Below, piece by piece: positions 38,136 through 57,542 of a stretch of DNA of 64,000 nucleotides (positions within the stretch are counted from its first letter, which is position 1; each line of letters starts with the position of its first letter). The position numbers were made by a program, and so were the translations under genes. Under the pieces are notes generated by a model. That model had not been told where the DNA came from. It made no database searches and was given only the letters and a program-made list of their open reading frames with translations. Location of the stretch: NCBI GenBank assembly GCA_023230585.1, contig JALNXB010000004.1, positions 10,196-74,195 on the forward strand, in the 5' to 3' direction. The stretch comes from a bacterium. Its GTDB lineage: Bacteria > Ratteibacteria > UBA8468 > B48-G9 > JAFGKM01.

Positions 38136-38800
38136 ATCTTTACCTTAAAAATTAAAAAATTGTTATGACTATAAATCCCTGTTCTTGGTATTGTGTACTC
38201 TGTTACCTCTAACTTTCTTTTACCCGGTGTTACAAACGCTCCTGCATAACCAGCTTCTTTTACTGCATCAACCACTCTTTGATTAAAATCTCCATAAGGA
38301 TAACAGAAAAAATCAACCTTTTTTCCTATCTTATCTTCAATAATTTTTTTTGAGTCATATACTTCTGTTTTCAGTTCTTTGTTTTCAAGGGTGGGTAGGT
38401 GTAAATGTTTCAACCCGTGAGAACCAAACTCTACCTGCCTCCCAACCATCTCTTTTATCTCTTTCCAGTTTAAAAACCGCTCCTTATCAGAAAACTCGTA
38501 TCTTGGAAGTGTCTTATTTGTCCCTATAAAATCAACACTAATAAATATAATGGGTCTAATATGTAACTTTTCCATAACCGGTAACCCATACCAGAGATTA
38601 TCAGCAAAACCATCATCAAAAGTTACACAAAACCTATTCTTTTCAAGAAGTATTTTAGTTCCTGTTGAAATTTCATTTATACTGGTTGGTATAAACTTTC
38701 GTCTGATTAAATATTTCATCTGTCTTTTAAAAGTTTCAGGCGAAACACTTAAAGCATCCTTTTTATACCAAGGGTTAACTCTATGATACGCTAAGACCAT
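38099..38800 (-). CDS. Polysaccharide deacetylase (CE4 / ArnD-like)
   Basis: VTFDDGFADN (metal Asp-Asp) and FGSHGLKHLHL (His-His). 233 aa. Confidence 0.8.
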   Translation of the reverse strand: MVLAYHRVNPWYKKDALSVSPETFKRQMKYLIRRKFIPTSINEISTGTKILLEKNRFCVTFDDGFADNLWYGLPVMEKLHIRPIIFISVDFIGTNKTLPRYEFSDKERFLNWKEIKEMVGRQVEFGSHGLKHLHLPTLENKELKTEVYDSKKIIEDKIGKKVDFFCYPYGDFNQRVVDAVKEAGYAGAFVTPGKRKLEVTEYTIPRTGIYSHNNFLIFKVKIWKSNKKIEKSF

Positions 38801-44864: not shown

Positions 44865-45956
44865 TTAATAAGTATCTAATCCTCTCTTTTTTCTAAAAAA
44901 AATCAAAATCTTACGAAACATAGAACTAAACCCTAAATAATAGAAACACACATACTTAACTGCCCAGATAATTTTAACTGTATTTGCACTTGAAACTGGC
45001 AAATTAAACGACTTTAAATTTTTTAAAAAAGATAAATAATATCTCTGTGCAGTTTTATACTCACTTTTTAATAACGCTCTTTGCCCGGAAGCAAATTCTT
45101 CGGAGAGTTTCCATAGTTCATATTTTTTCCAGGAAGATTTTGAAACAAGTTTTTCTTCTTTAGCGTACCCAGAATAATAGTCCATTACAACAAAAAAGAT
45201 AGAGTTGTCTGTTCCAAAAATTTGCGAACCTTGACCTGAATGAACACGGTAATACATAAGTTTTTTATGAAGAATTCCTATATTGGTTACCTGTAAAATA
45301 CGTAGCCACATATCCAGATCGTTTGCAGTAAATATCATATCTTTTTTCAGTTTATACTTACTTAACAATTCCAACCAAACTTTGTTCTTAGTATTTAAAA
45401 AGTAGTTCTCTTCCTTAAAAGAGCCTATCTGTGAAAACATTTCCCGAACAAACATACCGCTCGGACATATCAGAAAATCCCAAAATTCAAGAAAACCATT
45501 ATACCCACTTTTAAAATTCAAACTGTTAACATCTAAAAATTTTTCAGGAAATTCCCTTGTTCCTGTTGTTTTACCTAAGGTATCAATCTCAAACGCTTCA
45601 GTAAACACTGCCCCTACACCATTATTGGAATTAAGAAATTCCACCTGCTTTTCAACAATTTGAGGTGTATATATATCATCTGAATGGTAGAAAGAAATAA
45701 AATCTCCTTTAGCATAACGTAAAATTGCATTATAGTTACCGTAACAGTATAAATTTTCTCTATTCTCTCTAAAAATTATTCTCGGGTCGTTATATGAAAG
45801 AACTATATTTTTTGTATCGTCTGTAGAACCATTGTCAGACACAATAATTTCAAGGTTTGTGTAGGACTGAGCAATGATAGAATCAAGACATTCTTTAATA
45901 TATCTACCACTATTATATGTTGGTACACCTATTGTAATAAGTCGATTTTTTTTCAT
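44865..45956 (-). CDS. GT2 glycosyltransferase
   Basis: ITIGVPTYNSGRYIKECLDSIIAQSY, SDNGSTDDT, HSDD. 363 aa. Confidence 0.8.
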   Translation of the reverse strand: MKKNRLITIGVPTYNSGRYIKECLDSIIAQSYTNLEIIVSDNGSTDDTKNIVLSYNDPRIIFRENRENLYCYGNYNAILRYAKGDFISFYHSDDIYTPQIVEKQVEFLNSNNGVGAVFTEAFEIDTLGKTTGTREFPEKFLDVNSLNFKSGYNGFLEFWDFLICPSGMFVREMFSQIGSFKEENYFLNTKNKVWLELLSKYKLKKDMIFTANDLDMWLRILQVTNIGILHKKLMYYRVHSGQGSQIFGTDNSIFFVVMDYYSGYAKEEKLVSKSSWKKYELWKLSEEFASGQRALLKSEYKTAQRYYLSFLKNLKSFNLPVSSANTVKIIWAVKYVCFYYLGFSSMFRKILIFFRKKRGLDTY

Positions 45957-47443
45957 TTTATAAAAAGAAACTTAATTTTATTTTCTAAACTATCAATAAA
46001 AGAAATCTTTAAGGAATAAAAAATCCATTTACGTGCAAGAATAAATTGAATAACAAACCAGTATATCCCTGAAATAAAAAGGATTAGCAAAGACTTTATC
46101 ATACTAAATGTATTTCCATATCTATAGAGTAAAGGTGTTAGACAAAACATTGGTAAAGATAAGATTACAGCATACCCCATTCTTAACCAAGGTATTCTAA
46201 TAGGTAACTGTCTTTTCATATTTGAATACAAATGCACAATATAGAGTAGCCAACCGAGAGATAAAGCAATCCCACCGCCTAAAAAAGGGTTTTTTGGTAC
46301 CAGTAAAAAGATAAATAGTAGCGAAGAAAAGGCAAGCGTAACTCCTGGAGTTATAAGCGGTTTAGTTTCAAACTGAGCATGAGAAACAAGTGTTATAACA
46401 GAAGATACCATCTGCATACCTCCTATTACAGCACCCCAAAGTATTATATATCCTGCCTTATGAAATTTCTCGCCTGTAAAAACTTTTGCTATAAGTGGAC
46501 CGTTCATAAATATATAGATTGCCATTATAATAACAGCAGGGAAAAAAGCATAAGCGTACCTGTTCCATGCCTCCGCTCTTTCTGTTTCGGTGCTGTTAGA
46601 TATCTCTTTATAAAATAAAGGTCTATAATACTGGTTAAAAAGGTCTTCAAAAGGTACCATCAACTTGTTGCCCATACCTATACCAACAGTAAAAATACCC
46701 ACCATCTCAAAACTGGTAATTTTTTTAAACACAAAAAGGTACCCTTGAGATTGTAGCCAGTAAAGAAAAGAACTGATAGCAAAAGGCCAAGAAAATTTGA
46801 GAACATTTTTAATAGAACCGCTTGTATATAGTTTGTCTTTTACAATATATGTTTTAGTTGAAGCTTTAAATAAGTAAAAAACTGCTGGAACAAGTATTAG
46901 CCCTTGGGCTATTAAATTTCCAAATAACCAGTATTCTGCTGATGGGTTAATCTTTAATGCAAAAAATGAACTAAACAACAACCCCAGCCAGACAGTTAGT
47001 ATAGAAAATAGAACAAATTGCAAACGTTTACCATAAATATTTATCCAACCAATAAAAGATGTGTTTCCGTTTGAGAATAGAACACTTCCTATAGTTAAAA
47101 AAATTACCCAAGAAACAGTTACTCCAACATTAAAAAAAACTCTTAAAATCATAATTAAAAATGTAGCAAATACAGAGACCAAAAAATAGTAACCTAAAAT
47201 AGAGGTCACATACTTTTTTATCATACCTTCTTTGTTCCACTCAAGAAGTTTTCTTGTAACATAATTACCAACAGGAGCAATAAAAATCAAACCAAACCAC
47301 CCATAAATAACAGATAGTATATTTAAACGTCCTACTTCGTAGGGTGATATAAGAGTGGTAAAAATTCGTATAGAAAATACTGAGGTTAAAATTAAAAGCA
47401 TTTTACCTATGGTTAAAATAACTATATCTCTTGTTTTTCTCAT
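45953..47443 (-). CDS. Wzx-like oligosaccharide flippase (MOP superfamily)
   Basis: 496 aa with ~12-14 TM helices, and size and position typical of Wzx. No sharp motif. Confidence 0.6.
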   Translation of the reverse strand: MRKTRDIVILTIGKMLLILTSVFSIRIFTTLISPYEVGRLNILSVIYGWFGLIFIAPVGNYVTRKLLEWNKEGMIKKYVTSILGYYFLVSVFATFLIMILRVFFNVGVTVSWVIFLTIGSVLFSNGNTSFIGWINIYGKRLQFVLFSILTVWLGLLFSSFFALKINPSAEYWLFGNLIAQGLILVPAVFYLFKASTKTYIVKDKLYTSGSIKNVLKFSWPFAISSFLYWLQSQGYLFVFKKITSFEMVGIFTVGIGMGNKLMVPFEDLFNQYYRPLFYKEISNSTETERAEAWNRYAYAFFPAVIIMAIYIFMNGPLIAKVFTGEKFHKAGYIILWGAVIGGMQMVSSVITLVSHAQFETKPLITPGVTLAFSSLLFIFLLVPKNPFLGGGIALSLGWLLYIVHLYSNMKRQLPIRIPWLRMGYAVILSLPMFCLTPLLYRYGNTFSMIKSLLILFISGIYWFVIQFILARKWIFYSLKISFIDSLENKIKFLFIK

Positions 47444-47457
47444 AATGTTGTGTATAT

Positions 47458-48459
47458 TTAATTTTCAGAAAATTTCTCTACTATCTCTTTAAACAACGTT
47501 TCAACAAAACACTCTGCACTAAAAGGATATATTTTATCGCTTAAAACAAAGTTTTTTATTGAGTCCAGATACCTTATATACTCGCTATCTCTCATATCCT
47601 TCAAATAACGGTAGAGTTCTTCATAATTTTTAAAGTTTCTTTTATCAATAAAAGTGTTAGCAGGTATATAGTCGGTTATATTGGGAGCACCAAAGTAAAC
47701 AGGAACACAACCAGCAAAAAAAGAATTAAAGATTTTCTCTGTAATATATCCAGGAATATCCCTGCCGTTTTCATAGCAGATTGAAAATTTGTAGTTGGAC
47801 ATAACTTCTGATGCAGGTGCGGGAAATTTAAAACTGCTTCTTCGTGGAGCAAGCACTTTTGCCAACTTATCAAACCTATTCAATCGTTTCAATACACCTT
47901 TAAAAACCGCTTTATCCCACCCAAAACCGTATAAATCAAAATCTTCAGAATGATGTTTTTCGAACCATCTTATCGCTTTTATTCTTTCGGAGTATAACTC
48001 CAAAGGATGTTTATAGTATTTATTAGAATTTACCATCACACATAATTTATTCTTCTGAGAAATATTTATATCAAATGTTTTAGGAATTTTGTGTGAGTAA
48101 TTTATTTTAAAATATTTTTTACCGTCAATCAGGGTATCGTCCCAGGTGAAAATTTTCTTAAAATATTTATGTTTTTCCAAATCCCAGTTTTCAGGATAAA
48201 CAATTCTTGACTCTATTAATAGCAAATAATTGTCCGGAACAATATATTTAGATTCTGGCATATCGTTATAAATAATAAACTCCGAATCCTTTATAGGATT
48301 AATATCTTGGGTACTTAAATCAATATCATTTTCTAAAAACTTTTCTCTTAACATATAAAAACCATACATACAGTCGTTAGTATTAAAATTTTTATCAAAA
48401 ACATCAAACTGTTTATTGTTTAAATAATAATTTCCAGTAAAAAATGTTGTTTTTTTCAT
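47458..48459 (-). CDS. GT10-family alpha-1,3/4-fucosyltransferase
   Basis: YKFSICYENGRDIPGYITEKIFNSFFAGCVPVYFGAPNI matches the FucT signature (YKF.LCFEN....GYVTEKI.DA....T.PIYWG) known from Helicobacter pylori FutA/B. Confidence 0.8.
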   Translation of the reverse strand: MKKTTFFTGNYYLNNKQFDVFDKNFNTNDCMYGFYMLREKFLENDIDLSTQDINPIKDSEFIIYNDMPESKYIVPDNYLLLIESRIVYPENWDLEKHKYFKKIFTWDDTLIDGKKYFKINYSHKIPKTFDINISQKNKLCVMVNSNKYYKHPLELYSERIKAIRWFEKHHSEDFDLYGFGWDKAVFKGVLKRLNRFDKLAKVLAPRRSSFKFPAPASEVMSNYKFSICYENGRDIPGYITEKIFNSFFAGCVPVYFGAPNITDYIPANTFIDKRNFKNYEELYRYLKDMRDSEYIRYLDSIKNFVLSDKIYPFSAECFVETLFKEIVEKFSEN

Positions 48460-49457
48460 TTGTCTATCATTACAAAAATTTCTTTGAACCGCTCAACATA
48501 AGTCGGTCCATCTTTTAAAACTCTTTTATGCCCGTTTGCCAATATATTTTTTCTTATATCTTCATTTTCAAGATAATAGTTTAATTTCAAAATTAAATCT
48601 TCAAGACCTGTATATACAACTACCTCTTTACCGATATCAAAATAATCTTCTAAAGCAGGAACATAATTAGTTAATTGAAAACCACCAAAAGCAGGAATCT
48701 CAAAATTTCTCTGTTTTAACTGTTCAACTCTTTTATCCGATTTTAAAAACTCTTTAATATTTCTATAATGAGAAAATATATATCTTACATCATACGAAAC
48801 ACTATTAGATATATTTAAATTTATTCGAGATGTTAAGAAAATTTCGTTCATCTTTTCCCATTGAACAATTCCATTCTTCCAACCAACTCCAAAACATTCT
48901 ATATGAATTTTTTGCTTCTTTAATTGCTTTACCAACCACCCTCTAAAAGCACTGTACCCGCCAACAAAAGATATATCATATTGATATTTAACCCTATCAA
49001 AATCTAAAGTAGCAATATAACCACTTGAAGCACCTCTACTTAAAATAACGTTTTTATAACCTATACTTTTATATTTAGGTAAAGAATATTTATCAGTTGT
49101 AACACTATAAGTGAAATGGGGAGCATAATGTTTTGTAAAATTTTCAAACCTCCAATGGTCGTCCCAGAACCAATTTATAGTTGTATATTTTTCTTTAAGA
49201 ATATCAAGTGTTTCATAAGAGAATTCATCTCTCATTAGTATAAAAAGAATTATGTCTGGTTGTACCTTTTGTGAATATTCAATTAAAAGTTTCTGGAGTT
49301 CTTCTTTATTTTCTTTATAATCGTCCCACCAGAAAGGATAAACATCATACCCAAGTTGTTTTAGTGAGGAATACCAGCCACCACCCTTATATTCTATTGT
49401 TTCACCTCTGGATTTAATGCCATAATCGAAATGGAGAAAAACTGGTAGAATTTTCAT
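48456..49457 (-). CDS. CgeB/DUF3880-type glycosyltransferase-like protein
   Basis: ISFVGGYS...RGWLV and RNFEIPAFGGFQLTN resemble the CgeB-family C-terminal GT-B half. 333 aa. Confidence 0.55.
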   Translation of the reverse strand: MKILPVFLHFDYGIKSRGETIEYKGGGWYSSLKQLGYDVYPFWWDDYKENKEELQKLLIEYSQKVQPDIILFILMRDEFSYETLDILKEKYTTINWFWDDHWRFENFTKHYAPHFTYSVTTDKYSLPKYKSIGYKNVILSRGASSGYIATLDFDRVKYQYDISFVGGYSAFRGWLVKQLKKQKIHIECFGVGWKNGIVQWEKMNEIFLTSRINLNISNSVSYDVRYIFSHYRNIKEFLKSDKRVEQLKQRNFEIPAFGGFQLTNYVPALEDYFDIGKEVVVYTGLEDLILKLNYYLENEDIRKNILANGHKRVLKDGPTYVERFKEIFVMIDK

Positions 49458-50755
49458 TTAACTCCTTTTAAGAAGTTCTTAAACGTTTTTACCATATAAC
49501 TTAATTTTTCTTCAGTTAGCCCTGGGTATACCCCTACCCAAAAAAGGTTGTTCATTATTAGGTCAGTATTATTTAAGTTTCCAGATGTTCTACACTTTAT
49601 ATTTTTATAGGCAGGCTGTTTTATAAGGTTACCTCCAAAAAGCATTCTTGTTGCAACCTTCTTTTCTTCAAGGTGTTTAACAATATCTGCCCGTTGAAAA
49701 GGTACATCCTTATTTACCAGTAATGGAAATCCAAACCAGTTAGGTATCGCTTCTTTCTCCCATTTAGGTAACGTAAAAAACTCTTCATACTCTTTTAAGT
49801 TGGCATAAAGATACTCAAAATTCTTTTGGCGAGCTTTAATAAACATCGGAAGTTTATCCATCTGAGCCACCCCAATTGATGCCTGTAGATCTGTCATTTT
49901 AAGGTTATATCCAATATGAGAAAATATATATTTATGGTCATACCCAAAAGGCATATTTCCGTGTTGGGTGGAAAACCTATTGCCACAAGTATTATCAAAA
50001 CCCGGTTCACACCAACAGTCCCGCCCCCAATCTCTAAAAGAAAGGATAATTTTTTTAAGTAGTGGGGAGTTGGTCATAACCGCTCCGCCCTCTCCTGTTG
50101 TTATAATATGTGGTGGGTAAAAACTACAAGTTGAAACATCACCAAAGGTTCCAGTATACTTATTATTATATTTTGAGCCCAAACTATCACAATTATCTTC
50201 AATAAACCATAAGTTATATTTTTTTGATATTTCTGTTATTTTATTTAGATCTGCTGGATTTCCAAGTGTATGTGGAATAAAAATCGCTTTTGTCTTTTCT
50301 GTAATTGCTTCTTCAATAAGTGTGGTATCAATATTGTAAGAGCCAATCTTTACATCAAGAAAGACAGGTGTGAGGTTGTTCTGTATTATAGGATTTAGTG
50401 TAGTAGGAAACCCGCAAGAGGTAGTAATAACCTCATCTCCCGGTAGAAGTCTCTTTTCTTTTAATAAAGGAGATGTAAGAGCAGAAACAGCCAATAGGTT
50501 AGCAGATGAACCAGAATTAACAAGGATTGAGTACCTCAAACCAAGAAAACTTGATAACCTTTTTTCAAACTCTTTTGCATATTTTCCAGCAGTAAGCCAA
50601 AAATCAAGAGAAGCGTCAACAAGGTTGATTAACTCTTTTTCGTCATAAACCCTACCTCCATAATTAACATAACTTTTCCCGGGAATAAATTCATCTTGTT
50701 CTTTAAGTTCATAAAGTTCTTTAACCTTTTCGAGAATTTCTTTTTTTATCTTCAT
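49454..50755 (-). CDS. rfbH: CDP-6-deoxy-D-xylo-4-hexulose 3-dehydrase (E1, RfbH/DdhC/AscC type)
   Basis: Near-collinear with my recollection of Salmonella RfbH: GDEVITTSCGFPTT, FYPPHIITTGEGG (His in place of the PLP Lys), RDWGRDCWCEPGFDNTCGNRF. The C-X57-C-X1-C-X7-C spacing was counted by hand and is intact. Confidence 0.9.
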   Translation of the reverse strand: MKIKKEILEKVKELYELKEQDEFIPGKSYVNYGGRVYDEKELINLVDASLDFWLTAGKYAKEFEKRLSSFLGLRYSILVNSGSSANLLAVSALTSPLLKEKRLLPGDEVITTSCGFPTTLNPIIQNNLTPVFLDVKIGSYNIDTTLIEEAITEKTKAIFIPHTLGNPADLNKITEISKKYNLWFIEDNCDSLGSKYNNKYTGTFGDVSTCSFYPPHIITTGEGGAVMTNSPLLKKIILSFRDWGRDCWCEPGFDNTCGNRFSTQHGNMPFGYDHKYIFSHIGYNLKMTDLQASIGVAQMDKLPMFIKARQKNFEYLYANLKEYEEFFTLPKWEKEAIPNWFGFPLLVNKDVPFQRADIVKHLEEKKVATRMLFGGNLIKQPAYKNIKCRTSGNLNNTDLIMNNLFWVGVYPGLTEEKLSYMVKTFKNFLKGVK

Positions 50756-51666
50756 AATAGTCCAATAATTGTTTTGAATATTGCGTTAGCGGATAGATTA
50801 TGTTTTTCTCTCAAGTATTTATAGTCACCCACTTCTTTCACAAATATTTCAGAAATACCAATTCTTTTAAAAAGAACATTTCTACAAGAATAATCTGATA
50901 AAATTTCAGCAACTGCACTCCCCAATCCGCCATTTACACTATGTTCTTCAACGGTAAATATTGCTCTTGTTTCTTTCGTTGCTTTTAAAATGATTTCCTT
51001 GTCAATTGGCTTAACAGTGTGCATACTTATTACTCTTGAACTTATATTGCATTCTGTTAATTTTTCTGCAACCTTTATCACATTCTCAAGTATATCGCCT
51101 GTAGAAAAAATAGTAATATCTTTGCCTTCTTTTACTGTTATTCCTATACCTAATTTAAAGTTCTGTTTAGTTGAATAGATTGTTTCTCTGGCTCTTCCTA
51201 TTCTTATATATACTGGACCATTATGTTCAATTGAACGTCTTACAGTTAATTCCATTTCTAATGTATCAGCAGGAGAAACAACAACCATATTTGGAAGCAT
51301 TCTCATTATTCCAATATCTTCAATGGCATAATGGGTAAAACCTGCAGACCCATAAGCAAAGCCAGCTCCAACACCTACTAATTTTACATTAGTACTTTGA
51401 TAACATATATCGTTACGTATCTGTTCAAAACATCTCATAGTTAAAAATGGAATTATAGAATAAGCAAAAGCAATTTTTCCTGATAAAGCAAGCCCAGAAG
51501 CAATACCTATCATATTTTGCTCTGCAACACCTACATCAAAAAATCTTCTTGGAAATTGTTCCTTAAATTTTTCAAACACAGAAAAACCCAAATCTCCCGT
51601 AAGCAAGAAAATTTCCTTGTTTTCTCTTGACAGTTCCATAAGAGTATTAATAAATGTTTGTCTCAT
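50752..51666 (-). CDS. Transketolase, C-terminal (pyrimidine-binding) subunit
   Basis: FDVGVAEQNMIGIASGLA and HYAIEDIGIMRMLPNM. 304 aa. 4-nt overlaps with both neighbours. Confidence 0.87.
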   Translation of the reverse strand: MRQTFINTLMELSRENKEIFLLTGDLGFSVFEKFKEQFPRRFFDVGVAEQNMIGIASGLALSGKIAFAYSIIPFLTMRCFEQIRNDICYQSTNVKLVGVGAGFAYGSAGFTHYAIEDIGIMRMLPNMVVVSPADTLEMELTVRRSIEHNGPVYIRIGRARETIYSTKQNFKLGIGITVKEGKDITIFSTGDILENVIKVAEKLTECNISSRVISMHTVKPIDKEIILKATKETRAIFTVEEHSVNGGLGSAVAEILSDYSCRNVLFKRIGISEIFVKEVGDYKYLREKHNLSANAIFKTIIGLL

Positions 51667-52478
51667 TGTAATTCCAACTCCTGTAAAGCCGCTATTACCT
51701 CTTCCTGATTAGGTGATTTATAATGCCATTCAAGTTTATTTTCCATAAAAGAGACACCCTTCCCTTTTACTGTATGAGCAATAACCATACTTGGCTTATC
51801 TTTTTCAAAAGGAACCTTATCTAATGTCTCTATCAACTGCTTAAAATTATGTCCATCTACTTCTTTAACTGCCCAGCCAAAAGATTCCCACTTTTCTACA
51901 AACGGCTCCAAACCTATAACTTCATCAGTTGTACCAAACGCCTGTAGTTTATTATAATCAATAATAGCTACCAAGTTTTCCAATTTATGGTGTGCGGCAA
52001 AAAGTGCCCCTTCCCAAATAGAACCTTCATTGCACTCTCCGTCAGACATCAGTATAAACACGCGTGATTTTGTTTTGTCATACCTCATAGAAATTGCTAT
52101 TCCTATTCCAATTGGAAGACCGTGCCCCAAGGAACCAGCAGAAGTTTCAATACCGGGTACAATCCCTTTTGTGATATGTCCAAACAATTGCCCCCCATTA
52201 ATTGCATAAGTATCAAGAATTTTCTCTGAGAAAAAATTCCTTTTTGCCAAAGTAGCGTATAATGCACTGCAAGCATGCCCTTTGCTTAAAATAAATCTAT
52301 CTCTGTTGTTATCCTCTAGATTCTTAGGATTGATTTTTAAAATTTTGAAGTATAGAGTAACCAATATCTCGACACAAGAGAATGCCGAGCCGATATGAGA
52401 ACTTTTTGATTTAGCGTGCATAGAAAGTATTTTTTTTCTTATTTCTAATGCTAATTTCTTATAATCTTCTTTAGTCAT
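51663..52478 (-). CDS. Transketolase, N-terminal (ThDP-binding) subunit
   Basis: SHIGSAFSCVEIL, SKGHACSALYA, GSLGHGLPIGIG, SDGECNEGSIWEG. 271 aa. Confidence 0.87.
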   Translation of the reverse strand: MTKEDYKKLALEIRKKILSMHAKSKSSHIGSAFSCVEILVTLYFKILKINPKNLEDNNRDRFILSKGHACSALYATLAKRNFFSEKILDTYAINGGQLFGHITKGIVPGIETSAGSLGHGLPIGIGIAISMRYDKTKSRVFILMSDGECNEGSIWEGALFAAHHKLENLVAIIDYNKLQAFGTTDEVIGLEPFVEKWESFGWAVKEVDGHNFKQLIETLDKVPFEKDKPSMVIAHTVKGKGVSFMENKLEWHYKSPNQEEVIAALQELELQ

Positions 52479-52522
52479 TTATTTCGTTTCCCACAGTAGG
52501 TCAATTACATACTTTGATAGTT

Positions 52523-53494
52523 TCATAGTATATCTCCATTGGACACCTCACCTTCATACATTAAACTATTTTCTTTAAACCATATTAATGTTTTATTTAA
52601 CCCATTATCAAGACTGTGTTTAGGCTGCCAGTTTAAAATTTGTTCTGTTTTTGAAATATCTGCTTGCCAGATTTTTGGTTCAATTCTTGGATTTGAAACA
52701 GAACCCCATTTTGGTTTTATTTTCTTACCTGTTAAAAATAGAATTTTTTCTACAACTTCACCAACAGAATGCTGCAACCCTGAACCAATATTAAAAACAT
52801 CCGTATTCAACCTATCTTTCATATCTACTGCTTTTAGATATGCGTTGACTACATCTTCAATAAAAACAAAATCTCTGACAGAAGTTGGTGAAGAAACTTC
52901 GGGTGCAATATCTTTCAAGGAAGATAAAATTACTGATGGAATCAATCTTGTTGCTCCTTCATAATAACCATAAGGAGAAAATAATCGTAATGTTATCACA
53001 GGTAATCCAGTCCTAAATTTCATTTGACAAAACTGGGTTGCGAAAGCTTTTGAAATACCATAAGAAGAAAAAGGAGTTAAGGGAGAATCTTCTTTAATAG
53101 GTTCTTCTTTAACTCCATATTCAGATGAAGAACCTGTATTGATAAAAAGTTTAAACCCAACCTTTTCACAAGCTTCTATAAGATTAATTGTTCCAAGAAG
53201 ATTGGTATCTATGGTTTTTTTTAAATCTCTCTGATAAGGAAACCCGCCATAAACAGCTGTGTGGAATATTATTTCGGGGCGTATCGTTAAAACTAATTTT
53301 TCAACTGCTTGGTTATCTGTCAAATCGGCAGAAAATTCTGACACATCTTTAAGAATATCGTTTATTCTCCACTTGTTTGAAGTTGCACGGGTTAAAAGAT
53401 AAATATCTGCCCCTTTTTTCAGGCAACTTTTTACAAGGTTTGCCCCAACAAATCCTGTTGCGCCAGTAATTAACACTCTTTTATTTGTTAACAT
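52523..53494 (-). CDS. Extended SDR nucleotide-sugar reductase/epimerase
   Basis: VLITGATGFVGANL, YGISK YxxxK. 323 aa. Lies between the 4,6-dehydratase and the transketolase halves. Confidence 0.78.
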   Translation of the reverse strand: MLTNKRVLITGATGFVGANLVKSCLKKGADIYLLTRATSNKWRINDILKDVSEFSADLTDNQAVEKLVLTIRPEIIFHTAVYGGFPYQRDLKKTIDTNLLGTINLIEACEKVGFKLFINTGSSSEYGVKEEPIKEDSPLTPFSSYGISKAFATQFCQMKFRTGLPVITLRLFSPYGYYEGATRLIPSVILSSLKDIAPEVSSPTSVRDFVFIEDVVNAYLKAVDMKDRLNTDVFNIGSGLQHSVGEVVEKILFLTGKKIKPKWGSVSNPRIEPKIWQADISKTEQILNWQPKHSLDNGLNKTLIWFKENSLMYEGEVSNGDIL

Positions 53495-54452
53495 TTTTAA
53501 AATACCACAAAATAGTTTTTTTTAATCCGTCTTGAAGAGTGTATTTAGGTTGCCATTTTAAAATTCCTTTCGCTTTAGAGGAAGATAAATATTGGTCTTT
53601 TATTTCGCATTTTACTTCATTAAGAATTTTATAATTGGGCTCTTGTTTTGCTATCCTATATATTTCTTCCACAAGTTCAACCACAGATATAGGTTTTTCG
53701 TTACTAAAATTGAATGCTTCCCCTGCAAGATTCTCTCTGTTCAAGTTTTCTGCAAGCATAATATATCCTTCAACTATATCATCAATAAATATGTAGTCAC
53801 GAGTAAAAAGTCCGTTACTCCTAATTAAAAACTCTCTACTCAATATAGCACACCTAACAGCATCAGGTACAATACGAGAGAAATTATAGTCCCCGGGACC
53901 ATATATGTTTCCACAACGGGTAATAGCAACAGGTAAATCATAGGTTTGAAAATATGATTGAGAAAGCAGGTCAGCACAACTTTTTGAAACATCGTAAGGG
54001 TGTTGACCTTTTAAAGGTGAATCTTCTTTATATGGGAGTTGTTGTTCTCCGTATGCTTTGTCGCTTGAAGCAGTTATGACACAATTAACTGTATCAGATT
54101 GTCTACAAACCTCAAGAATATTCCAGGTTCCCTTTATATTAGATGAAAAAGCGTTAAGAGGTTTTTTTAAACATTCGCCAACGATAGCTTCAGCAGCAAG
54201 ATGAAATACAACCTGTATCTTGTTTTCTTTTATAATATTTTCAACAATTTTATATTCGCTTACACTTGCTTTTATAATAGTTATCTGGGCAAGATCTTTT
54301 TGGGTTAAAATAGTTTCTTTACGTTCTGTTATAATATCTATACCAAAAACATCCGCTCCCAAAGAAAGAAGTTTTTTGGTTAAGTGAGAACCCACAAACC
54401 CTTCGTATCCAGTTATTAAGACCTTTTTATCTTTCCAAAAAACCTTTGGCAT
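53481..54452 (-). CDS. CDP-glucose 4,6-dehydratase-like SDR
   Basis: FWKDKKVLITGYEGFVGSHL, SSDKAYGE, YDVSK. The track ORF begins at 54548, but that extension reads through repeat DNA. The internal Met at 54452 has AGGAG 7 nt upstream. Confidence 0.7.
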   Translation of the reverse strand: MPKVFWKDKKVLITGYEGFVGSHLTKKLLSLGADVFGIDIITERKETILTQKDLAQITIIKASVSEYKIVENIIKENKIQVVFHLAAEAIVGECLKKPLNAFSSNIKGTWNILEVCRQSDTVNCVITASSDKAYGEQQLPYKEDSPLKGQHPYDVSKSCADLLSQSYFQTYDLPVAITRCGNIYGPGDYNFSRIVPDAVRCAILSREFLIRSNGLFTRDYIFIDDIVEGYIMLAENLNRENLAGEAFNFSNEKPISVVELVEEIYRIAKQEPNYKILNEVKCEIKDQYLSSSKAKGILKWQPKYTLQDGLKKTILWYFKNVNK

Positions 54453-54471
54453 TAGTATCTCCTGTAAAAAA

Positions 54472-54580
54472 ACCTCTCCCCTTAATCCTTTCTTCCTGCA
54501 CACATTGTCATTTATGGAGCGGTGCAAAAACGAGATTGTCGCAGTCACAAAAAACGTTCCTTCGCAAAGACGGAGTGAGC
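54472..54580 (+). repeat. Degenerate repeat (B-head / F-tail like)
   Basis: CAAAAACGAGATTGTCGCAGTCACAAAAAACGTTCCTTCGCAAAGACGGAGTGAG resembles GAGATTGCCACGTTAAGAAACACTCGCAAAAACGGAATGG. It lies between rfbF and the 4,6-dehydratase gene. Confidence 0.5.
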
Positions 54581-54587
54581 AAAATTG

Positions 54588-55370
54588 TTACCATACTTTC
54601 CAAGGTGGTTCTTCTGATGCCCACAAATTCCTCAAAACATCCAACTCCCTTTGTGTATCCATACATTGCCAGAAACCATTATGTAAACAAACATTCAACT
54701 GATTATCTTTCACAAGATTTTCAAGTGGCTCTTTCTCAAGATAACACCTGTCATCATCCCATAAATATTCAAAAAATTCTTTATTGAAAACAAAAAAACC
54801 TCCATTAATAAAACTTTTTTTAACTTGAGGTTTTTCTCCAAATTTAACTACTTGGTCATCTTTTATTAGCAGTTCACCAAATCTTGAGGAAGGATGCACT
54901 CCGGTAATTGTCCCAATTTTTTTATGAGATTTATGGTATTCCAACAAATCTTTTATATTTATATCAGCTACGCCGTCACCATAAGTAAGCATAAAAATAT
55001 CGTCATTCTCAACATACTTCTCAATCCTCTTAACCCTTGCACCTGTCTGGGCTTTTTCACCTGTATCAGCAAAGGTAATTTTCCAATTTTTTTCATAAGA
55101 TTTGGTATAGGTTTTTATATTATTACTTCCCAATTTTAATGTAAAATCTGAGTTCATTATCTCATAATTAAGAAAATATTCTTTTATCATCTTACCTTTA
55201 TATCCAAGACAGAGTATAAAATCATCAAAACCATAGTGGGCATATATCTTCATTATATGCCAAAGGACAGGCATCCCACCAACCTCAACAAGAGGTTTAG
55301 GGCGAAACTCTGTTTCTGCCTCCATTCGTGTGCCTCTACCGCCACATAGAATCACTACTTTAGATTTCAT
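54588..55370 (-). CDS. rfbF: Glucose-1-phosphate cytidylyltransferase
   Basis: KVVILCGGRGTRM..RPKPLVEVGGMPVLWHIMKIYAHYGFDDFILCLGYKG is classic RfbF. I use the start at 55370 (MKSKVVIL), which forms an ATGA overlap with the fcl stop; the track start is 55397. Confidence 0.88.
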   Translation of the reverse strand: MKSKVVILCGGRGTRMEAETEFRPKPLVEVGGMPVLWHIMKIYAHYGFDDFILCLGYKGKMIKEYFLNYEIMNSDFTLKLGSNNIKTYTKSYEKNWKITFADTGEKAQTGARVKRIEKYVENDDIFMLTYGDGVADINIKDLLEYHKSHKKIGTITGVHPSSRFGELLIKDDQVVKFGEKPQVKKSFINGGFFVFNKEFFEYLWDDDRCYLEKEPLENLVKDNQLNVCLHNGFWQCMDTQRELDVLRNLWASEEPPWKVW

Positions 55371-56302
55371 TTGTCCTCCATATTTTTTCGGTACCAATCA
55401 ATTGTTTTTTCAAGTCCTTCGTCTAAAGAGATAGACGGGTTCCACCCTAAGTTAAGAACTTTTGTAACGTCAAGCAATTTACGTGGAGTTCCGTCTGGTT
55501 TGCTAGTATCAAATTTTATTTCACCTTTATACTCTGTTATCTTCCTTATTTTTTGCACAAGTTCCTTAATTGTAAGATCAACCCCTACCCCTACATTTAT
55601 AATTTCATTTGAATTATATACATCCATCAAGAAGACCAAACACTCGGCAAGGTCGTCGATATATAAAAACTCTCTCCTTGCTTTCCCAGTACCCCATATT
55701 TCAACAAAAGGTAGATTATCTTTTTGAGCTTTACAAAACTTCATAATTAAAGCAGGTATAACGTGAGAATCCTGCAAATTAAAATTGTCATAAGGACCAT
55801 AAAGATTAGTAGGCATTACGCTTATAAAGTTGGTGTTAAATTGCCTGTTATATGCTTGGCACATTTTAATACCTGCAATCTTTGATATAGCATATGGTTC
55901 ATTGGTAGGTTCAAGGGTATCTGTCAAAAGGTACTCTTCTTTAATAGGTTGTTTAGCAAATTTTGGATAAATACAAGAACTTCCAAGAAAAAGCAGTTTT
56001 TTAACCCCGTGTTTATATGAAGAATTGATAATATTTGTTTGTATTGATAAGTTATCATATATAAAGTCAGCAGGGTAGTTTGAATTTGCAAGTATTCCAC
56101 CAACTTTTGCTGCAGATAAGAAAACATAATCAGGTCTTTCTTTCTTAAAAAAGTTATCAACTAAAACCTGTTTTCTTAAATCCATCTGTTTACTTGTCTT
56201 AAATACCAGATTATTATAACCGTTAGATTTCAAGTATCTTAATATACTGCTTCCAACAAGTCCTCTATGACCCGCTATATAGATTTTATCTTTTTTTTCC
56301 AT
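55367..56302 (-). CDS. fcl: GDP-L-fucose synthase (GDP-4-keto-6-deoxymannose 3,5-epimerase/4-reductase)
   Basis: IYIAGHRGLVGSSI, SSCIYP, YAISK. 311 aa. Downstream of gmd. Confidence 0.9.
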   Translation of the reverse strand: MEKKDKIYIAGHRGLVGSSILRYLKSNGYNNLVFKTSKQMDLRKQVLVDNFFKKERPDYVFLSAAKVGGILANSNYPADFIYDNLSIQTNIINSSYKHGVKKLLFLGSSCIYPKFAKQPIKEEYLLTDTLEPTNEPYAISKIAGIKMCQAYNRQFNTNFISVMPTNLYGPYDNFNLQDSHVIPALIMKFCKAQKDNLPFVEIWGTGKARREFLYIDDLAECLVFLMDVYNSNEIINVGVGVDLTIKELVQKIRKITEYKGEIKFDTSKPDGTPRKLLDVTKVLNLGWNPSISLDEGLEKTIDWYRKNMEDK

Positions 56303-56312
56303 CTTGTTTCTA

Positions 56313-56492
56313 CCATTCCTTTTTTGACTTCGGCGAGTCTTATCCCGAGTACCCCCGAGGGAATTGCAACGTTACGAAACCCCTCCTACGCTAAAATACA
56401 AGCTTCGGCGGATAAACCTCATCCCATTAACTTCTCTGTAAACCCCTGAAGACTCACTATCCCAAGAGCCTATAGGGTAGAGGGAGAACGGG
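56313..56492 (+). repeat. Composite intergenic repeat (F-head, D fragment, E)
   Basis: CCATTCCTTTTTTGACTTCGGCGAG..., CCCCTCCTACGCTAAAATACAAGCTTCGGCGGATAAACCTCATCCCATTAACTTCTCTGTAAACCCCTGAAGACTCACTATCCC. It lies between gmd and fcl. Confidence 0.85.
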
Positions 56493-56498
56493 AAAAAA

Positions 56499-57542
56499 CT
56501 ATGAGACCTTTGTCCAGTTAAAATTTTCTTTTTCAACTATTTTAATACCTTCACCTACCGGTTTTAACCCTACTTCCACCATATCATAATCAACCATTAT
56601 TTTTATAAGTTCTTCAAACCTAATACGAGGTTTCCACTTTAACTCCTTTTTTGCTTTCTCTATATCAGCGATAAGATCATTGACCTCTTTAGGACGAAAA
56701 TAGGTTGGGTCTATCTTTACATATTTTTTCCAATCAAGGTTTGCGTAAGAGAAAGATTTTTCTACAAACTCCTCAACAGAATGAGATTCACCTGTACCTA
56801 TAACAAAGTTATTAGGTTTTTCTTGTTGAAGAATAGCCCACATAGCTTCAGCATATTCAGGAGCAAACCCCCAATCTCTTTTTGCTTTAAGATTACCTAA
56901 ATATAGGAAATCCTGTTCTCCTTTAAGAATTCGTGCAATAGCTCGAGTGATTTTACGGCTTACAAAAGTTTCTCCTCTCCTTGGAGATTCGTGGTTAAAT
57001 AAGATACCATTACATATAAAAAGGTTGTATGAATCTCGGTAATTTTCTGCTATCCAGTAGGAATAAACCTTTGCTATTGCGTAAGGACTACAAGGTTTAA
57101 AAGGGGTGTTTTCGTTTTGAGGTGGCGGCGAATCTCCAAACATCTCGCTACTACTTGCTTGGTAAAATTTTGTTTTTATACCGCTTCGTCTTACTGCTTC
57201 CAAAAGACGGGTTGTCCCAAGCCCAGTAATATTACCGGTATATTCAGGCATATCAAAACTAACTCTTACATGACTCTGAGCTCCAAGGTGGTATATTTCT
57301 GAAGGTTTAATATTATAAATAAGGTTATCCAGTTGAGCACTATCGCTCATATCTCCGTAATGAAGAAAAAGGCGAGTGTCTGGAGAATGAAAATCAGAAA
57401 ATATATGGTCAATTCTAACAGTGTTAAAAGTGCTTGCTCTACGAATAATACCGTGGACTTCGTATCCTTTTTTTAGTAGAAATTCTGCAAGGTAACTGCC
57501 GTCTTGACCTGTTATGCCAGTAATTAACGCTTTTTGTCTCAT
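56499..57542 (-). CDS. gmd: GDP-mannose 4,6-dehydratase
   Basis: [50 protein letters not shown]. 347 aa. Confidence 0.95.

What the first reader, a model, noticed from the sequence alone, without database searches (positions are those of the whole stretch)
49454..55370. CDP-3,6-dideoxyhexose cassette with an embedded split transketolase (rfbF-rfbG-SDR-tktN-tktC-rfbH)
Seen: six contiguous minus-strand genes.
- Glc-1-P cytidylyltransferase (54588-55370).
- 4,6-dehydratase-like SDR (53481-54452).
- A second SDR (52523-53494).
- Transketolase ThDP-binding half (51663-52478).
- Transketolase pyrimidine-binding half (50752-51666).
- E1 3-dehydrase (49454-50755).

The tktN/tktC and tktC/rfbH junctions each overlap by 4 nt, which implies co-translation.

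Established: RfbF/RfbG/RfbH (plus E3) generate CDP-4-keto-3,6-dideoxy-D-glucose. In the Yersinia yersiniose A pathway a ThDP enzyme (YerE) adds a two-carbon branch to that intermediate and a reductase (YerF) finishes it. Pyruvate-dehydrogenase-E1-like pairs do a comparable job in some antibiotic sugar pathways.

Inference: the split transketolase may be a non-homologous ThDP branch- or chain-extending enzyme acting on the CDP-ketosugar, with the adjacent SDR as the reductase. The product would be a branched or extended dideoxy sugar. I am not aware of a biochemical characterisation of this gene arrangement.
Basis: partly seen in the sequence, partly recalled or inferred. Interest (0 to 1): 0.68.

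Follow-up and report, generated by a model that had tools for sequence, protein, structure and literature searches.

The report
Transketolase-like pair inside a CDP-dideoxysugar cassette
An uncultured bacterium's cell-surface sugar locus embeds a remodelled, non-housekeeping two-gene transketolase-like enzyme among the genes that make a CDP-activated 4-keto-3,6-dideoxy sugar, probably to add a two-carbon branch to that sugar, a reaction never shown for this enzyme type.

Summary
Six contiguous minus-strand genes (49454-55370) encode RfbF, a CDP-glucose-4,6-dehydratase-like SDR, a second SDR, TktN, TktC and a genuine E1/RfbH 3-dehydrase. Five junctions in the operon are ATGA start/stop overlaps.

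The Tkt pair is not a housekeeping transketolase. It keeps every cofactor and donor-side catalytic residue. Two acceptor-site residues are replaced: His461 (E. coli numbering) is Gly and Asp469 is Ala. All 120 closest homologues have that Gly. All 120 relatives of the characterised C. hydrogenoformans split transketolase keep His and Asp. The two groups are reciprocally monophyletic.

The clade occurs in at least 599 matched stretches across many phyla, inside glycan loci. The window's own subclade always sits with RfbF, the 4,6-dehydratase and E1, in permuted gene orders. Other members pair with ColD-like 3-dehydratases or with sugar aminotransferases.

Best reading: a ThDP enzyme that adds a glycolaldehyde unit to C4 of CDP-4-keto-3,6-dideoxyglucose, after which the second SDR reduces the branch ketone. 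This is inferred, not shown.

No E3 reductase is present in the window or in any related locus. I found no paper describing this arrangement. I rate it a new variant of a known kind.

The parts
54588..55370 (-). rfbF, glucose-1-phosphate cytidylyltransferase
   Evidence: TIGR02623 equivalog, 341 bits against a cut-off of 300. The ATG at 55370 overlaps the fcl stop as ATGA.
53481..54452 (-). SDR1, probable CDP-glucose 4,6-dehydratase (Eod/RfbG type)
   Evidence: Best NCBIfam hit is TIGR02622 at 215 bits, below its cut-off of 278. Its SSDK motif and N-terminal FW..K.V..TG..GF.GS.L motif align with the solved CDP-glucose 4,6-dehydratases 1WVG and 1RKX, whereas dTDP-type enzymes have TDE. An AGGAG ribosome-binding site precedes ATG 54452.
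52523..53494 (-). SDR2, extended SDR reductase or epimerase with no equivalog; proposed reductase of the branch ketone (YerF-like role)
   Evidence: Pfam Epimerase, 5e-48. No NCBIfam family reaches its cut-off. The best solved structures are generic, around 1e-30. It has YGISK and SSSEY but no Asp-Glu or Asp-Lys dehydratase pair, and LLTR after beta-2 suggests NADPH (read from the sequence; inference). An SDR2-type gene flanks tktN or tktC in L001, L004, L008, L009, L064 and L072.
51663..52478 (-). tktN, ThDP/diphosphate-binding half of the transketolase-like enzyme
   Evidence: Transketolase_N, 9e-38. 3e-76 to the N-terminal chain of the C. hydrogenoformans split transketolase 6YAK. The His equivalents of human His37, 77, 110 and 258, plus Asp155 and Asn185, are kept. 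GDG is SDG, as in 59 of 64 clade members.
50752..51666 (-). tktC, pyrimidine-binding and C-terminal half of the transketolase-like enzyme, with a remodelled acceptor site
   Evidence: Transket_pyr plus Transketolase_C. 1e-69 to 6YAJ. Arg2, Ser29, Glu49, His112 and Arg155 are kept. The human His416 position is Gly100 and the Asp424 position is Ala108.
49454..50755 (-). rfbH/E1, PMP- and [2Fe-2S]-dependent CDP-4-keto-6-deoxyglucose 3-dehydrase
   Evidence: NF011936, 686 bits against a cut-off of 423. His216 replaces the aminotransferase Lys, and the motif C189-X57-C247-X-C249-X7-C257 is present.
47458..49457 (-). Two translationally coupled glycosyltransferases (Glyco_trans_1_2, then GT10-like) that are conserved together with the cassette
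   Evidence: Pfam. ATGA overlaps. Orthologues at 64% and 61% identity sit directly after E1 in L002 and L006, and a GT10-like gene is present in L001 and L005.
55367..57542 (-). gmd and fcl (GDP-fucose synthesis), immediately upstream in the same operon; context only, not part of the conserved core
   Evidence: TIGR01472, 495 bits. NF047922, 476 bits, just under its cut-off of 500. Present in only some related loci.

Best explanation
This is a dedicated pathway for a modified CDP-3,6-dideoxyhexose.

Shown by family assignment:
- RfbF makes CDP-glucose.
- SDR1 converts it to CDP-4-keto-6-deoxyglucose.
- E1 removes the 3-hydroxyl, giving CDP-4-keto-3,6-dideoxyglucose. Electrons must come from a reductase encoded elsewhere.

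Inferred:
- The TktN/TktC heteromer is a ThDP enzyme of the transketolase superfamily. It keeps the machinery that forms the dihydroxyethyl-ThDP carbanion from a ketol donor such as xylulose-5-P, fructose-6-P or hydroxypyruvate.
- Its acceptor pocket is rebuilt. It has lost the His that helps hold a sugar phosphate and the Asp that binds the acceptor's alpha-hydroxyl. It has gained aromatic and hydrophobic residues.
- It therefore takes the C4 ketone of the CDP-sugar, rather than an aldose phosphate, as its electrophile.
- The product would be a 4-C-(hydroxyacetyl) tertiary alcohol. The NADPH-type SDR2 would reduce its side-chain ketone to a 4-C-(1,2-dihydroxyethyl)-3,6-dideoxyhexose.
- A downstream glycosyltransferase would then transfer this sugar into the surface glycan.

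Functionally this mirrors YerE/YerF in yersiniose synthesis, using a different ThDP superfamily and probably a hydroxylated C2 unit.
For: Translational coupling: tktN/tktC, tktC/rfbH and rfbH/GT are ATGA overlaps.

Conserved context:
- The closest TktC homologues (64-73% identity) lie in the same cassette on four independent metagenome contigs.
Four more loci (L011, L015, L019, L064) carry only a ColD-like 3-dehydratase.
- About a dozen of these loci also carry RfbF and a 4,6-dehydratase, in permuted orders and in different phyla.
- Two mechanistically different 3-dehydratases pair with the same transketolase-like subclades. That points to the 3-deoxy-4-keto sugar as the shared substrate.

Not a housekeeping enzyme:
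- 120 of 120 clade members have Gly at the His461 position (E. coli numbering), and 119 of 120 lack Asp469.
- 120 of 120 relatives of the characterised split transketolase keep His, Glu, Asp and Arg at the four positions tested.
- The groups are reciprocally monophyletic, with 42% identity between them.
- NCBIfam transketolase equivalogs score 208 and 267 bits against a cut-off of 488.

Donor side intact: all four TktN His residues, the activating Glu and the yeast His481 equivalent are conserved.

Established knowledge (from my own recall, not checked here): yeast Asp477 / E. coli Asp469 binds the acceptor's C2-OH, and its replacement opens transketolase to non-hydroxylated acceptors. A 3-deoxy-4-ketosugar has no hydroxyl next to the carbonyl on the C3 side.

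Precedent: YerE acts on exactly this CDP-ketosugar, and split transketolases have been proposed for hydroxyacetyl branching in miharamycin and amipurimycin (PMC12247030).
Against: - There are no biochemical data for any member of the clade.
- SDR2 could equally be an ordinary C4 ketoreductase (abequose or paratose synthase type). That would leave the transketolase-like pair without a keto acceptor.
- Arg2, Ser29 and Arg155, three of the four classical phosphate-binding residues, are kept. A sugar-phosphate acceptor is therefore not excluded.
- About half of the clade lies in other contexts, either aminotransferase-linked or catabolic-looking. Context alone does not fix the substrate.
- No E3 reductase is encoded here, so the E1 step needs an external partner.
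- No natural 3,6-dideoxy-4-C-(1,2-dihydroxyethyl)hexose is known to me.
- The donor cannot be identified from sequence.
Confidence: 0.5

Rival explanations
1. Same enzyme logic with a different donor. The pair behaves like DXP synthase or YerE. It decarboxylates pyruvate and adds an acetyl (hydroxyethyl) unit, so the product after SDR2 is a yersiniose-type 4-C-(1-hydroxyethyl)-3,6-dideoxyhexose.
For: DXP synthase belongs to the same superfamily. TktC scores 179 bits against TIGR00204 (dxs), and several clade members are named DXS by their sources. Yersiniose-type sugars are known from LPS (PMC12247030).
Against: Best overall similarity is to true transketolase: Transketolase_N at 130 bits against DXP_synthase_N at 37 bits, and about 50% identity to 6YAJ/6YAK. 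The His residues that hold the donor's C1-hydroxyl in transketolase are all kept. In engineered transketolases these are the residues changed to accept pyruvate (my own recall).
Confidence: 0.15
2. The cassette makes an ordinary CDP-3,6-dideoxyhexose, with SDR2 as the C4 ketoreductase. The transketolase-like pair does something else for the glycan, such as making a non-sugar substituent or acting on another nucleotide sugar of the locus.
For: RfbF, the 4,6-dehydratase, E1 and one reductase are exactly the classical gene set. The same clade also occurs with aminotransferases or without any CDP genes. GDP-4-keto-6-deoxymannose is also made in this operon by gmd.
Against: The window's whole subclade is E1-linked. 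tktC is translationally coupled to rfbH. gmd and fcl are absent from most related cassettes, while RfbF, SDR1 and E1 persist. Some cassettes (L025, L066) have no SDR2-type gene, so a classical pathway there would lack its last step.
Confidence: 0.2
3. The pair replaces the missing E3. It oxidises its ThDP-bound enamine and passes two electrons to the [2Fe-2S] cluster of E1, so 3-deoxygenation is driven by a ketol donor instead of NADH.
For: No E3/AscD-type gene, judged by the plant-type ferredoxin motif, occurs in the 64-kb window or within 10 kb in any of the 18 E1-linked loci. tktC and rfbH are translationally coupled. Transketolase is known to oxidise its intermediate with artificial acceptors such as ferricyanide (my own recall).
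Against: TktN and TktC have no Fe-S or flavin motif. The same clade pairs with ColD-like dehydratases and with Lys-type aminotransferases, which need no electrons. This idea does not explain the remodelled acceptor pocket. Anaerobes can supply reduced ferredoxin or flavodoxin from elsewhere.
Confidence: 0.05
4. A plain pentose-phosphate split transketolase that lies here by chance.
For: The domain architecture and most catalytic residues are those of transketolase, with about 50% identity to a characterised split transketolase. Whether the genome has another tkt gene could not be checked.
Against: His461 and Asp469 (E. coli numbering) are lost in the whole clade but kept in 120 of 120 relatives of the characterised enzyme. 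The clade is separate. Scores fall below the equivalog cut-offs. Synteny with glycan genes is conserved across phyla.
Confidence: 0.03

Closest known systems
YerE/YerF branch of the yersiniose A pathway (Yersinia pseudotuberculosis) and other YerE-like enzymes (ErwE, JanthE, MMAR_2332)
   Same: The upstream genes (cytidylyltransferase, 4,6-dehydratase, E1) and the presumed acceptor, CDP-4-keto-3,6-dideoxyglucose, are the same. A ThDP enzyme is followed by a reductase, all within a cell-surface glycan locus (PMC12247030).
   Different: YerE belongs to the decarboxylase (acetolactate-synthase-like) ThDP superfamily and uses 2-keto acids. Here the enzyme is a two-subunit member of the transketolase superfamily and is not homologous in domain order. 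The transferred unit is probably hydroxylated. No E3 gene is present.
Split-gene transketolases proposed for the hydroxyacetyl branch of miharamycin and amipurimycin, plus 13 Streptomyces split transketolases found in silico (Krug et al. 2024, as cited in PMC12247030)
   Same: Split transketolase genes sit inside a sugar-modifying cluster, with a proposed ketone acceptor and a hydroxyacetyl unit. They too are uncharacterised in vitro.
   Different: Those lie in actinomycete antibiotic clusters and act on nucleoside-sugar intermediates. This clade lies in surface-glycan loci of many non-actinomycete phyla and is tied to CDP-sugar genes.
Housekeeping split transketolase (Carboxydothermus hydrogenoformans, PDB 6YAJ/6YAK)
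   Same: Same fold and subunit split, about 50% identity, the same cofactor and donor-side residues, and Arg, Ser and Arg of the phosphate site.
   Different: His461 becomes Gly and Asp469 becomes Ala (E. coli numbering), Glu423 (human numbering) is lost, GDG becomes SDG, the channel loops are remodelled (Tyr69 and Tyr105 are invariant in the clade), and the clade is separate.
Pyruvate-dehydrogenase-E1-like alpha/beta pairs ('alpha-KADH2') of aldgarose, kosinostatin, kibdelomycin and similar sugars
   Same: A two-subunit ThDP enzyme adds a C2 branch to an NDP-ketosugar. The branch ketone is then reduced, methylated or transaminated, which parallels the SDR-linked and aminotransferase-linked classes seen here.
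   Different: A different superfamily: TktN scores 130 bits on Transketolase_N but only 30 bits on E1_dh. Those enzymes use pyruvate as donor and occur in actinomycete secondary metabolism.
Classical CDP-3,6-dideoxyhexose pathways (Salmonella rfb, Yersinia asc/ddh)
   Same: RfbF, the 4,6-dehydratase and E1 are present with all their hallmarks.
   Different: No E3 (RfbI/AscD) is present, no recognisable RfbS, RfbJ or RfbE equivalog is present, and tktN/tktC are inserted.

Membership tests
Transketolase, EC 2.2.1.1 (housekeeping) | Transketolase_N, Transket_pyr and Transketolase_C domains | tested here: met
   Pfam hits at 9e-38, 8e-31 and 4e-25.
Transketolase, EC 2.2.1.1 (housekeeping) | ThDP/Mg motif (GDG...N), the cofactor-activating Glu, and the donor-side His residues (E. 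coli 26, 66, 100, 261, 473) | tested here: met
   All are present. The only change is GDG to SDG, which is clade-wide.
Transketolase, EC 2.2.1.1 (housekeeping) | Acceptor and phosphate site: Arg358, Ser385, His461, Asp469, Arg520 (E. coli numbering) | tested here: not met
   Both Arg residues and the Ser are kept. His461 is Gly and Asp469 is Ala. In the clade 120 of 120 have the Gly and 119 of 120 lack the Asp, whereas 120 of 120 relatives of the characterised split transketolase keep both.
Transketolase, EC 2.2.1.1 (housekeeping) | Reaches the curated equivalog score and groups with characterised enzymes | tested here: not met
   NF004559 gives 208 bits (TktC) and 267 bits (TktN) against a cut-off of 488 for a full-length enzyme. 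The clade is separate and monophyletic.
CDP-3,6-dideoxyhexose pathway (Rfb/Asc/Ddh) | Glucose-1-phosphate cytidylyltransferase | tested here: met
   TIGR02623, 341 bits against a cut-off of 300.
CDP-3,6-dideoxyhexose pathway (Rfb/Asc/Ddh) | CDP-glucose 4,6-dehydratase | tested here: inconclusive
   TIGR02622 gives 215 bits, below its cut-off of 278. However, the Ser-Asp-Lys and YxxxK motifs and the N-terminal motif align with 1WVG and 1RKX.
CDP-3,6-dideoxyhexose pathway (Rfb/Asc/Ddh) | E1 3-dehydrase: His in place of the Schiff-base Lys, and the C-X57-C-X-C-X7-C [2Fe-2S] motif | tested here: met
   NF011936, 686 bits against a cut-off of 423. His216 and Cys189, 247, 249 and 257 are present.
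CDP-3,6-dideoxyhexose pathway (Rfb/Asc/Ddh) | E3 reductase (AscD/RfbI: plant-type [2Fe-2S] plus an FNR-like domain) in the cluster | tested here: not met
   No ORF in any frame of the window has the CX4CX2CX20-40C motif. None of the 18 E1-linked relatives has one within 10 kb. This was a motif search only, so a divergent reductase could be missed.
CDP-3,6-dideoxyhexose pathway (Rfb/Asc/Ddh) | Terminal C4 ketoreductase or epimerase (RfbS, RfbJ, RfbE, AscE/F) | tested here: inconclusive
   SDR2 is the only candidate. No NCBIfam equivalog is reached, and the best solved matches are generic.
YerE-type sugar-branching enzymes (decarboxylase superfamily) | A single-chain ThDP enzyme with the acetolactate-synthase-like three-domain architecture | tested here: not met
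   No such domains appear in any cassette gene. The ThDP enzyme here is transketolase-type and split into two genes.
Ketone-accepting split transketolases (miharamycin/amipurimycin type; proposed only) | Split transketolase genes embedded among genes that make a keto-sugar | tested here: met
Ketone-accepting split transketolases (miharamycin/amipurimycin type; proposed only) | Sequence relationship to the Streptomyces enzymes, and demonstrated activity on a ketone acceptor | not testable with these tools
The activity is undemonstrated even for them.
PDH-E1-like alpha/beta pairs ('alpha-KADH2') | An E1_dh alpha subunit | tested here: not met
   E1_dh scores 30 bits against 130 bits for Transketolase_N.

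The most novel reading that the evidence does not exclude
The window belongs to a large, unrecognised family of NDP-4-ketosugar C-glycolyltransferases: transketolase-like enzymes that take a ketone on a nucleotide sugar as acceptor. The family is spread over hundreds of mostly uncultured bacterial species.

Here it would make a new C8 branched sugar, 3,6-dideoxy-4-C-(1,2-dihydroxyethyl)hexose, for a surface glycan. In sister classes the branch ketone would instead be aminated or methylated.

These would be the first natural transketolases shown to form tertiary alcohols.
Probability: 0.4. Interest if true: 0.75.

Novelty: new variant of a known kind. Interest (0 to 1): 0.62.

Why it matters
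ThDP-dependent branching of CDP-4-keto-3,6-dideoxyglucose is known only from YerE-type enzymes. Transketolases that accept ketones are so far only a hypothesis drawn from a few Streptomyces antibiotic clusters. A 2025 review lists them as an open need for making chiral tertiary alcohols (PMC12247030).

This finding supplies three things:
- A concrete, widespread and sequence-defined clade to test.
- A simple diagnostic signature: Gly at the E. coli His461 position, a non-Asp residue at 469, and SDG in place of GDG.
- An obvious candidate substrate.

If confirmed, it would add a new class of branched sugars to bacterial surface glycans, including those of candidate phyla. It would add a new biocatalyst type for hydroxyacetyl transfer to ketones. 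It would also explain why many 'transketolase' or 'DXS' annotations in glycan loci are wrong.

Tried and rejected
- **Leptospira rfb locus.** I suspected this from the MarR-gmd-fcl start and the 33% G+C content. I rejected it because the window's proteins fall in clusters of only 1-4 members, from a 100-kb metagenomic contig. The Leptospira rfb papers also never mention transketolase.
- **Searching for an E3.** A ferredoxin-motif scan of all six frames of the window and of all 85 loci found nothing real.
- **Assigning SDR2.** Neither NCBIfam nor the solved-structure search gave a specific match.
- **Literature.** Searches combining transketolase with rfbH, CDP/dideoxy/O-antigen, Leptospira rfb, 'split transketolase' plus polysaccharide, glucose-1-phosphate cytidylyltransferase, and pillarose returned only the 2025 review as relevant.
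- **Krug et al. 2024** is not held in the library.
- **Structure prediction.** I did not run it. Homology to solved transketolases is unambiguous, and the active site forms across subunits, which single-chain models do not show.

Full report
**1. Observation.**
The region 49454-55370 holds six contiguous minus-strand ORFs, exactly as described. The family scans give:

| Gene | Coordinates | Best family hit |
|---|---|---|
| RfbF | 54588-55370 | TIGR02623 glucose-1-phosphate cytidylyltransferase, 341 bits (cut-off 300) |
| SDR1 | 53481-54452 | TIGR02622 CDP-glucose 4,6-dehydratase, 215 bits (below cut-off 278) |
| SDR2 | 52523-53494 | extended SDR, no equivalog |
| TktN | 51663-52478 | Transketolase_N, 9e-38 |
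| TktC | 50752-51666 | Transket_pyr 8e-31 plus Transketolase_C 4e-25 |
| RfbH/E1 | 49454-50755 | NF011936, 686 bits (cut-off 423) |

The mechanical ORF list extends RfbF and SDR1 upstream to TTG and GTG codons. ATG 55370 forms an ATGA overlap with the fcl stop, and ATG 54452 follows an AGGAG ribosome-binding site.

The tktN/tktC and tktC/rfbH junctions are ATGA overlaps. So are fcl/rfbF, rfbH/GT and GT/GT10.

**2. Surroundings.**
The cassette lies inside a polysaccharide locus of about 36 kb (roughly 25.0-61.1 kb), all on the minus strand. Its contents are:
- gmd and fcl directly upstream, and a MarR-type regulator before them.
- Two translationally coupled glycosyltransferases directly downstream (Glyco_trans_1_2 and GT10-like).
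- GT2 and GT4 enzymes, and four PMT_2/ArnT-like membrane transferases.
- UDP-glucose dehydrogenase, further SDRs, an AsnB-like amidotransferase, a deacetylase and a methyltransferase.

Housekeeping genes flank the locus: queA, tgt and valS on one side and prs on the other.

The organism is uncultured. The window's proteins belong to 90%-identity clusters of 1-4 members, on a contig of about 100 kb. G+C content is about 33%.

**3. The sugar-nucleotide enzymes.**
E1 carries both hallmarks of the PMP/[2Fe-2S] 3-dehydrase. His216 stands where aminotransferases have the Schiff-base Lys. The motif C189-X57-C247-X-C249-X7-C257 is present. To my knowledge this is the spacing described for Yersinia E1.

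SDR1 aligns its SSDK and YDVSK motifs, and its N-terminal FW..K.V..TG motif, with the solved CDP-glucose 4,6-dehydratases 1WVG and 1RKX. dTDP-type enzymes have TDE at that point.

SDR2 has YGISK but no dehydratase acid/base pair. It has Thr-Arg after beta-2, which by the usual SDR rules suggests an NADPH-dependent reductase (inference). Its best solved relatives are generic, around 1e-30.

No E3 (AscD/RfbI) gene exists here. No reading frame of the window carries a plant-type ferredoxin motif. None of the 18 E1-linked related loci has one within 10 kb.

**4. The Tkt pair is a transketolase-superfamily enzyme but not a transketolase.**
The closest solved structure is the characterised split transketolase of Carboxydothermus hydrogenoformans, 6YAJ/6YAK. 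E-values are 1e-69 and 3e-76, with about 50% identity.

Mapping onto human, yeast and E. coli numbering shows that everything needed to bind ThDP and form the carbanion from a ketol donor is kept:
- The four N-half His residues.
- Asp and Asn of the metal motif.
- The activating Glu.
- The equivalent of yeast His481.

Arg, Ser and Arg of the phosphate site are kept too. Two invariant acceptor-site residues are replaced:
- His416 (human) / His469 (yeast) / His461 (E. coli) is Gly100.
- Asp424 / Asp477 / Asp469 is Ala108, so 'GEDG' becomes 'GSAG'.

This is a clade property, not an accident of one gene. Among the 120 best database homologues, 120 have the Gly and 119 lack the Asp, carrying Ala, Leu or Tyr instead. 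Among 120 relatives of the characterised enzyme, 120 keep each of His, Glu, Asp and Arg.

The two sets are reciprocally monophyletic in a neighbour-joining tree. Identity is 60% and 73% within the sets and 42% between them.

Other clade-specific changes cluster in the same substrate-channel loops. Window residues 23-31, 68-72 and 98-108 are affected, and Tyr69 and Tyr105 are invariant in the clade. GDG is SDG in 59 of 64 TktN sequences.

The halves do not cluster with housekeeping split transketolases.

**5. Comparative context.**
The closest TktC homologues (64-73% identity) lie in the same cassette on independent metagenome contigs. One is an Omnitrophota MAG, where E1 is again followed by the same two glycosyltransferases. 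Another has the order TktN-TktC-SDR-RfbF-SDR-E1.

A scan of species genomes hit its 600-stretch limit, and 599 of those stretches encode a relative. I examined the best 80 loci, which come from many phyla.

I clustered the neighbouring ORFs and classified the DegT-family neighbours by active-site signature. Three context classes emerged.

| Class | Typical neighbours | Extent |
|---|---|---|
| I | RfbF, CDP-type 4,6-dehydratase, usually a second SDR, TktN, TktC and E1, in permuted orders | 18 loci with E1; 4 more loci carry only a ColD-like His-type 3-dehydratase without the Cys motif; some add an NDP-hexose C-methyltransferase |
| II | PglC-like transferase, TylF-like methyltransferase, TktN, TktC, Lys-type DegT aminotransferase, class I/II aminotransferase, PglF-like dehydratase | about 20 loci |
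| III | ROK regulators, classical SDRs, URO-D-like genes (looks catabolic) | one subclade |

In a neighbour-joining tree the window groups with the E1-linked loci L001, L002, L004, L005, L006 and L009.

**6. Mechanism.**
*Shown by family assignment:* the cassette makes CDP-4-keto-3,6-dideoxyglucose, given an external electron donor for E1.

*Inferred:* TktNC forms dihydroxyethyl-ThDP from a ketol donor and adds it to the C4 ketone. This gives a 4-C-(hydroxyacetyl) tertiary alcohol. SDR2 then reduces the side-chain ketone.

The reasons are:
- The donor side is intact and the acceptor side is rebuilt.
- The lost Asp is the residue that binds the acceptor's alpha-hydroxyl in yeast and E. coli transketolase. 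Its replacement is what opens engineered transketolases to non-hydroxylated acceptors (my own recall). A 3-deoxy-4-ketosugar has no hydroxyl at C3.
- In a hexose 1-diphosphate, the C4 carbonyl is three bonds from C1. That is the same spacing as the carbonyl and the phosphate-bearing carbon in erythrose-4-P or xylulose-5-P. The retained Arg pair could therefore hold the sugar-proximal phosphate (inference).
- Two mechanistically different 3-dehydratases (E1 and ColD-like) co-occur with the clade. This points to their common product as the substrate.
- YerE does the analogous reaction on exactly this substrate (PMC12247030).
- In the PDH-E1-like branching systems the branch ketone is later reduced, methylated or transaminated. 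That matches the SDR, methyltransferase and aminotransferase partners seen in classes I and II.

*Not resolved:* the donor, the stereochemistry, whether SDR2 acts on the ring or on the branch, and who reduces E1.

**7. Rivals.**
- Same logic with pyruvate as donor, giving a yersiniose-type product: 0.15.
- An ordinary 3,6-dideoxyhexose, with the pair doing another job: 0.20.
- The pair acts as an E3 substitute, feeding electrons to E1: 0.05.
- A chance housekeeping transketolase: 0.03.

The last is contradicted by sections 4 and 5. The E3 idea is prompted by the consistent absence of E3. It is weakened because the same clade pairs with ColD-like enzymes and aminotransferases, which need no electrons.

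**8. Comparison with the known.**
It works like YerE/YerF but is not a member, because the ThDP superfamily is different. It is a member of the transketolase superfamily but fails two defining active-site features of transketolase proper, and it fails the curated score.

The nearest described idea is the split transketolase proposed for the hydroxyacetyl branch of miharamycin and amipurimycin, together with 13 Streptomyces split transketolases found in silico. None has been tested in vitro. The 2025 review assigns transketolase-type branching to specialised metabolites, and assigns LPS branching to YerE-like enzymes only.

I found no paper linking transketolase genes with rfbF, rfbH or CDP-sugar cassettes.

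**9. Verdict.**
I rate it a new variant of a known kind: ThDP-dependent C-branching of a CDP-ketosugar carried out by a previously unrecognised, widespread transketolase-like clade. Interest is 0.62.

Noticed in passing
window 1-64000; loci L001-L085: No E3/AscD/RfbI-type reductase gene (plant-type ferredoxin motif) lies anywhere in the window, or within 10 kb of E1 in any of the 18 E1-linked relatives. E1 nevertheless keeps its full [2Fe-2S] Cys motif. The electron donor is unexplained.
   Followed up: partly
L010, L012, L018, L022, L029, L032, L039, L043, L055, L057, L065, L070, L077 (around the TktC match): A second conserved module uses the same transketolase-like clade: PglC-like transferase, TylF-like methyltransferase, TktN, TktC, Lys-type DegT aminotransferase, class I/II aminotransferase and a PglF-like dehydratase. 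It may make an aminated or methylated C-branched amino sugar. The class I/II aminotransferase could supply hydroxypyruvate from serine (speculation). One carrier is cultured: Roseovarius sp. E0-M6 (L065).
   Followed up: partly
L016, L024, L026, L053, L054, L059, L062, L067, L074, L076: A third subclade of the transketolase-like pair (signature Gly-Pro-Leu) sits with ROK regulators, classical short-chain dehydrogenases and URO-D-like genes in Verrucomicrobiota, Kiritimatiellota and Clostridia. The context looks catabolic rather than biosynthetic.
   Followed up: partly
L002 5930-7192; L009 3490-4644; cluster c17 in L030, L041, L058: An NDP-hexose C-methyltransferase (Methyltransf_13/14) is inserted between the dehydratase/SDR genes and tktN in several CDP-class cassettes. 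This implies a sugar that is both C-methylated and C2-branched.
   Followed up: partly
L025 4838-5569; L066 11233-11985: In two cassettes that lack an SDR2-type gene, the gene after tktC is a histidine-phosphatase-family protein (L025) or an acetaldehyde-dehydrogenase-like protein (L066). These may be clues to the donor, or to alternative processing of the branch.
   Followed up: no
window 25048-26754, 33922-35436, 36945-38135, 58234-59826: Four PMT_2/ArnT-like GT-C membrane glycosyltransferases lie in one locus. That is unusual for a single O-antigen or capsule cluster, and suggests periplasmic or outer-face glycosylation from lipid-linked donors.
   Followed up: no
window 40760-42238 and 45953-47443: Two ORFs of 492 and 496 aa have no Pfam hit. 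They are probably a polymerase, ligase or flippase. They were not examined further.
   Followed up: no
window 38099-40701: An AsnB-like glutamine amidotransferase and a polysaccharide deacetylase overlap by one base. AsnB-like genes also recur near the transketolase-like pair in six other loci (cluster 13). They may amidate a uronic acid made through the UDP-glucose dehydrogenase at 31485-32810.
   Followed up: no
window 51663-52478 (TktN residues 145-147): The ThDP-binding GDG motif is SDG here and in 59 of 64 clade members. A YerE-like enzyme with a CDG variant (JanthE) is noted in the 2025 review.
   Followed up: partly
database annotations of clade members: Their sources name members of this clade 'transketolase', '1-deoxy-D-xylulose-5-phosphate synthase' or 'hypothetical protein'. 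These names are probably systematic mis-annotations.
   Followed up: no
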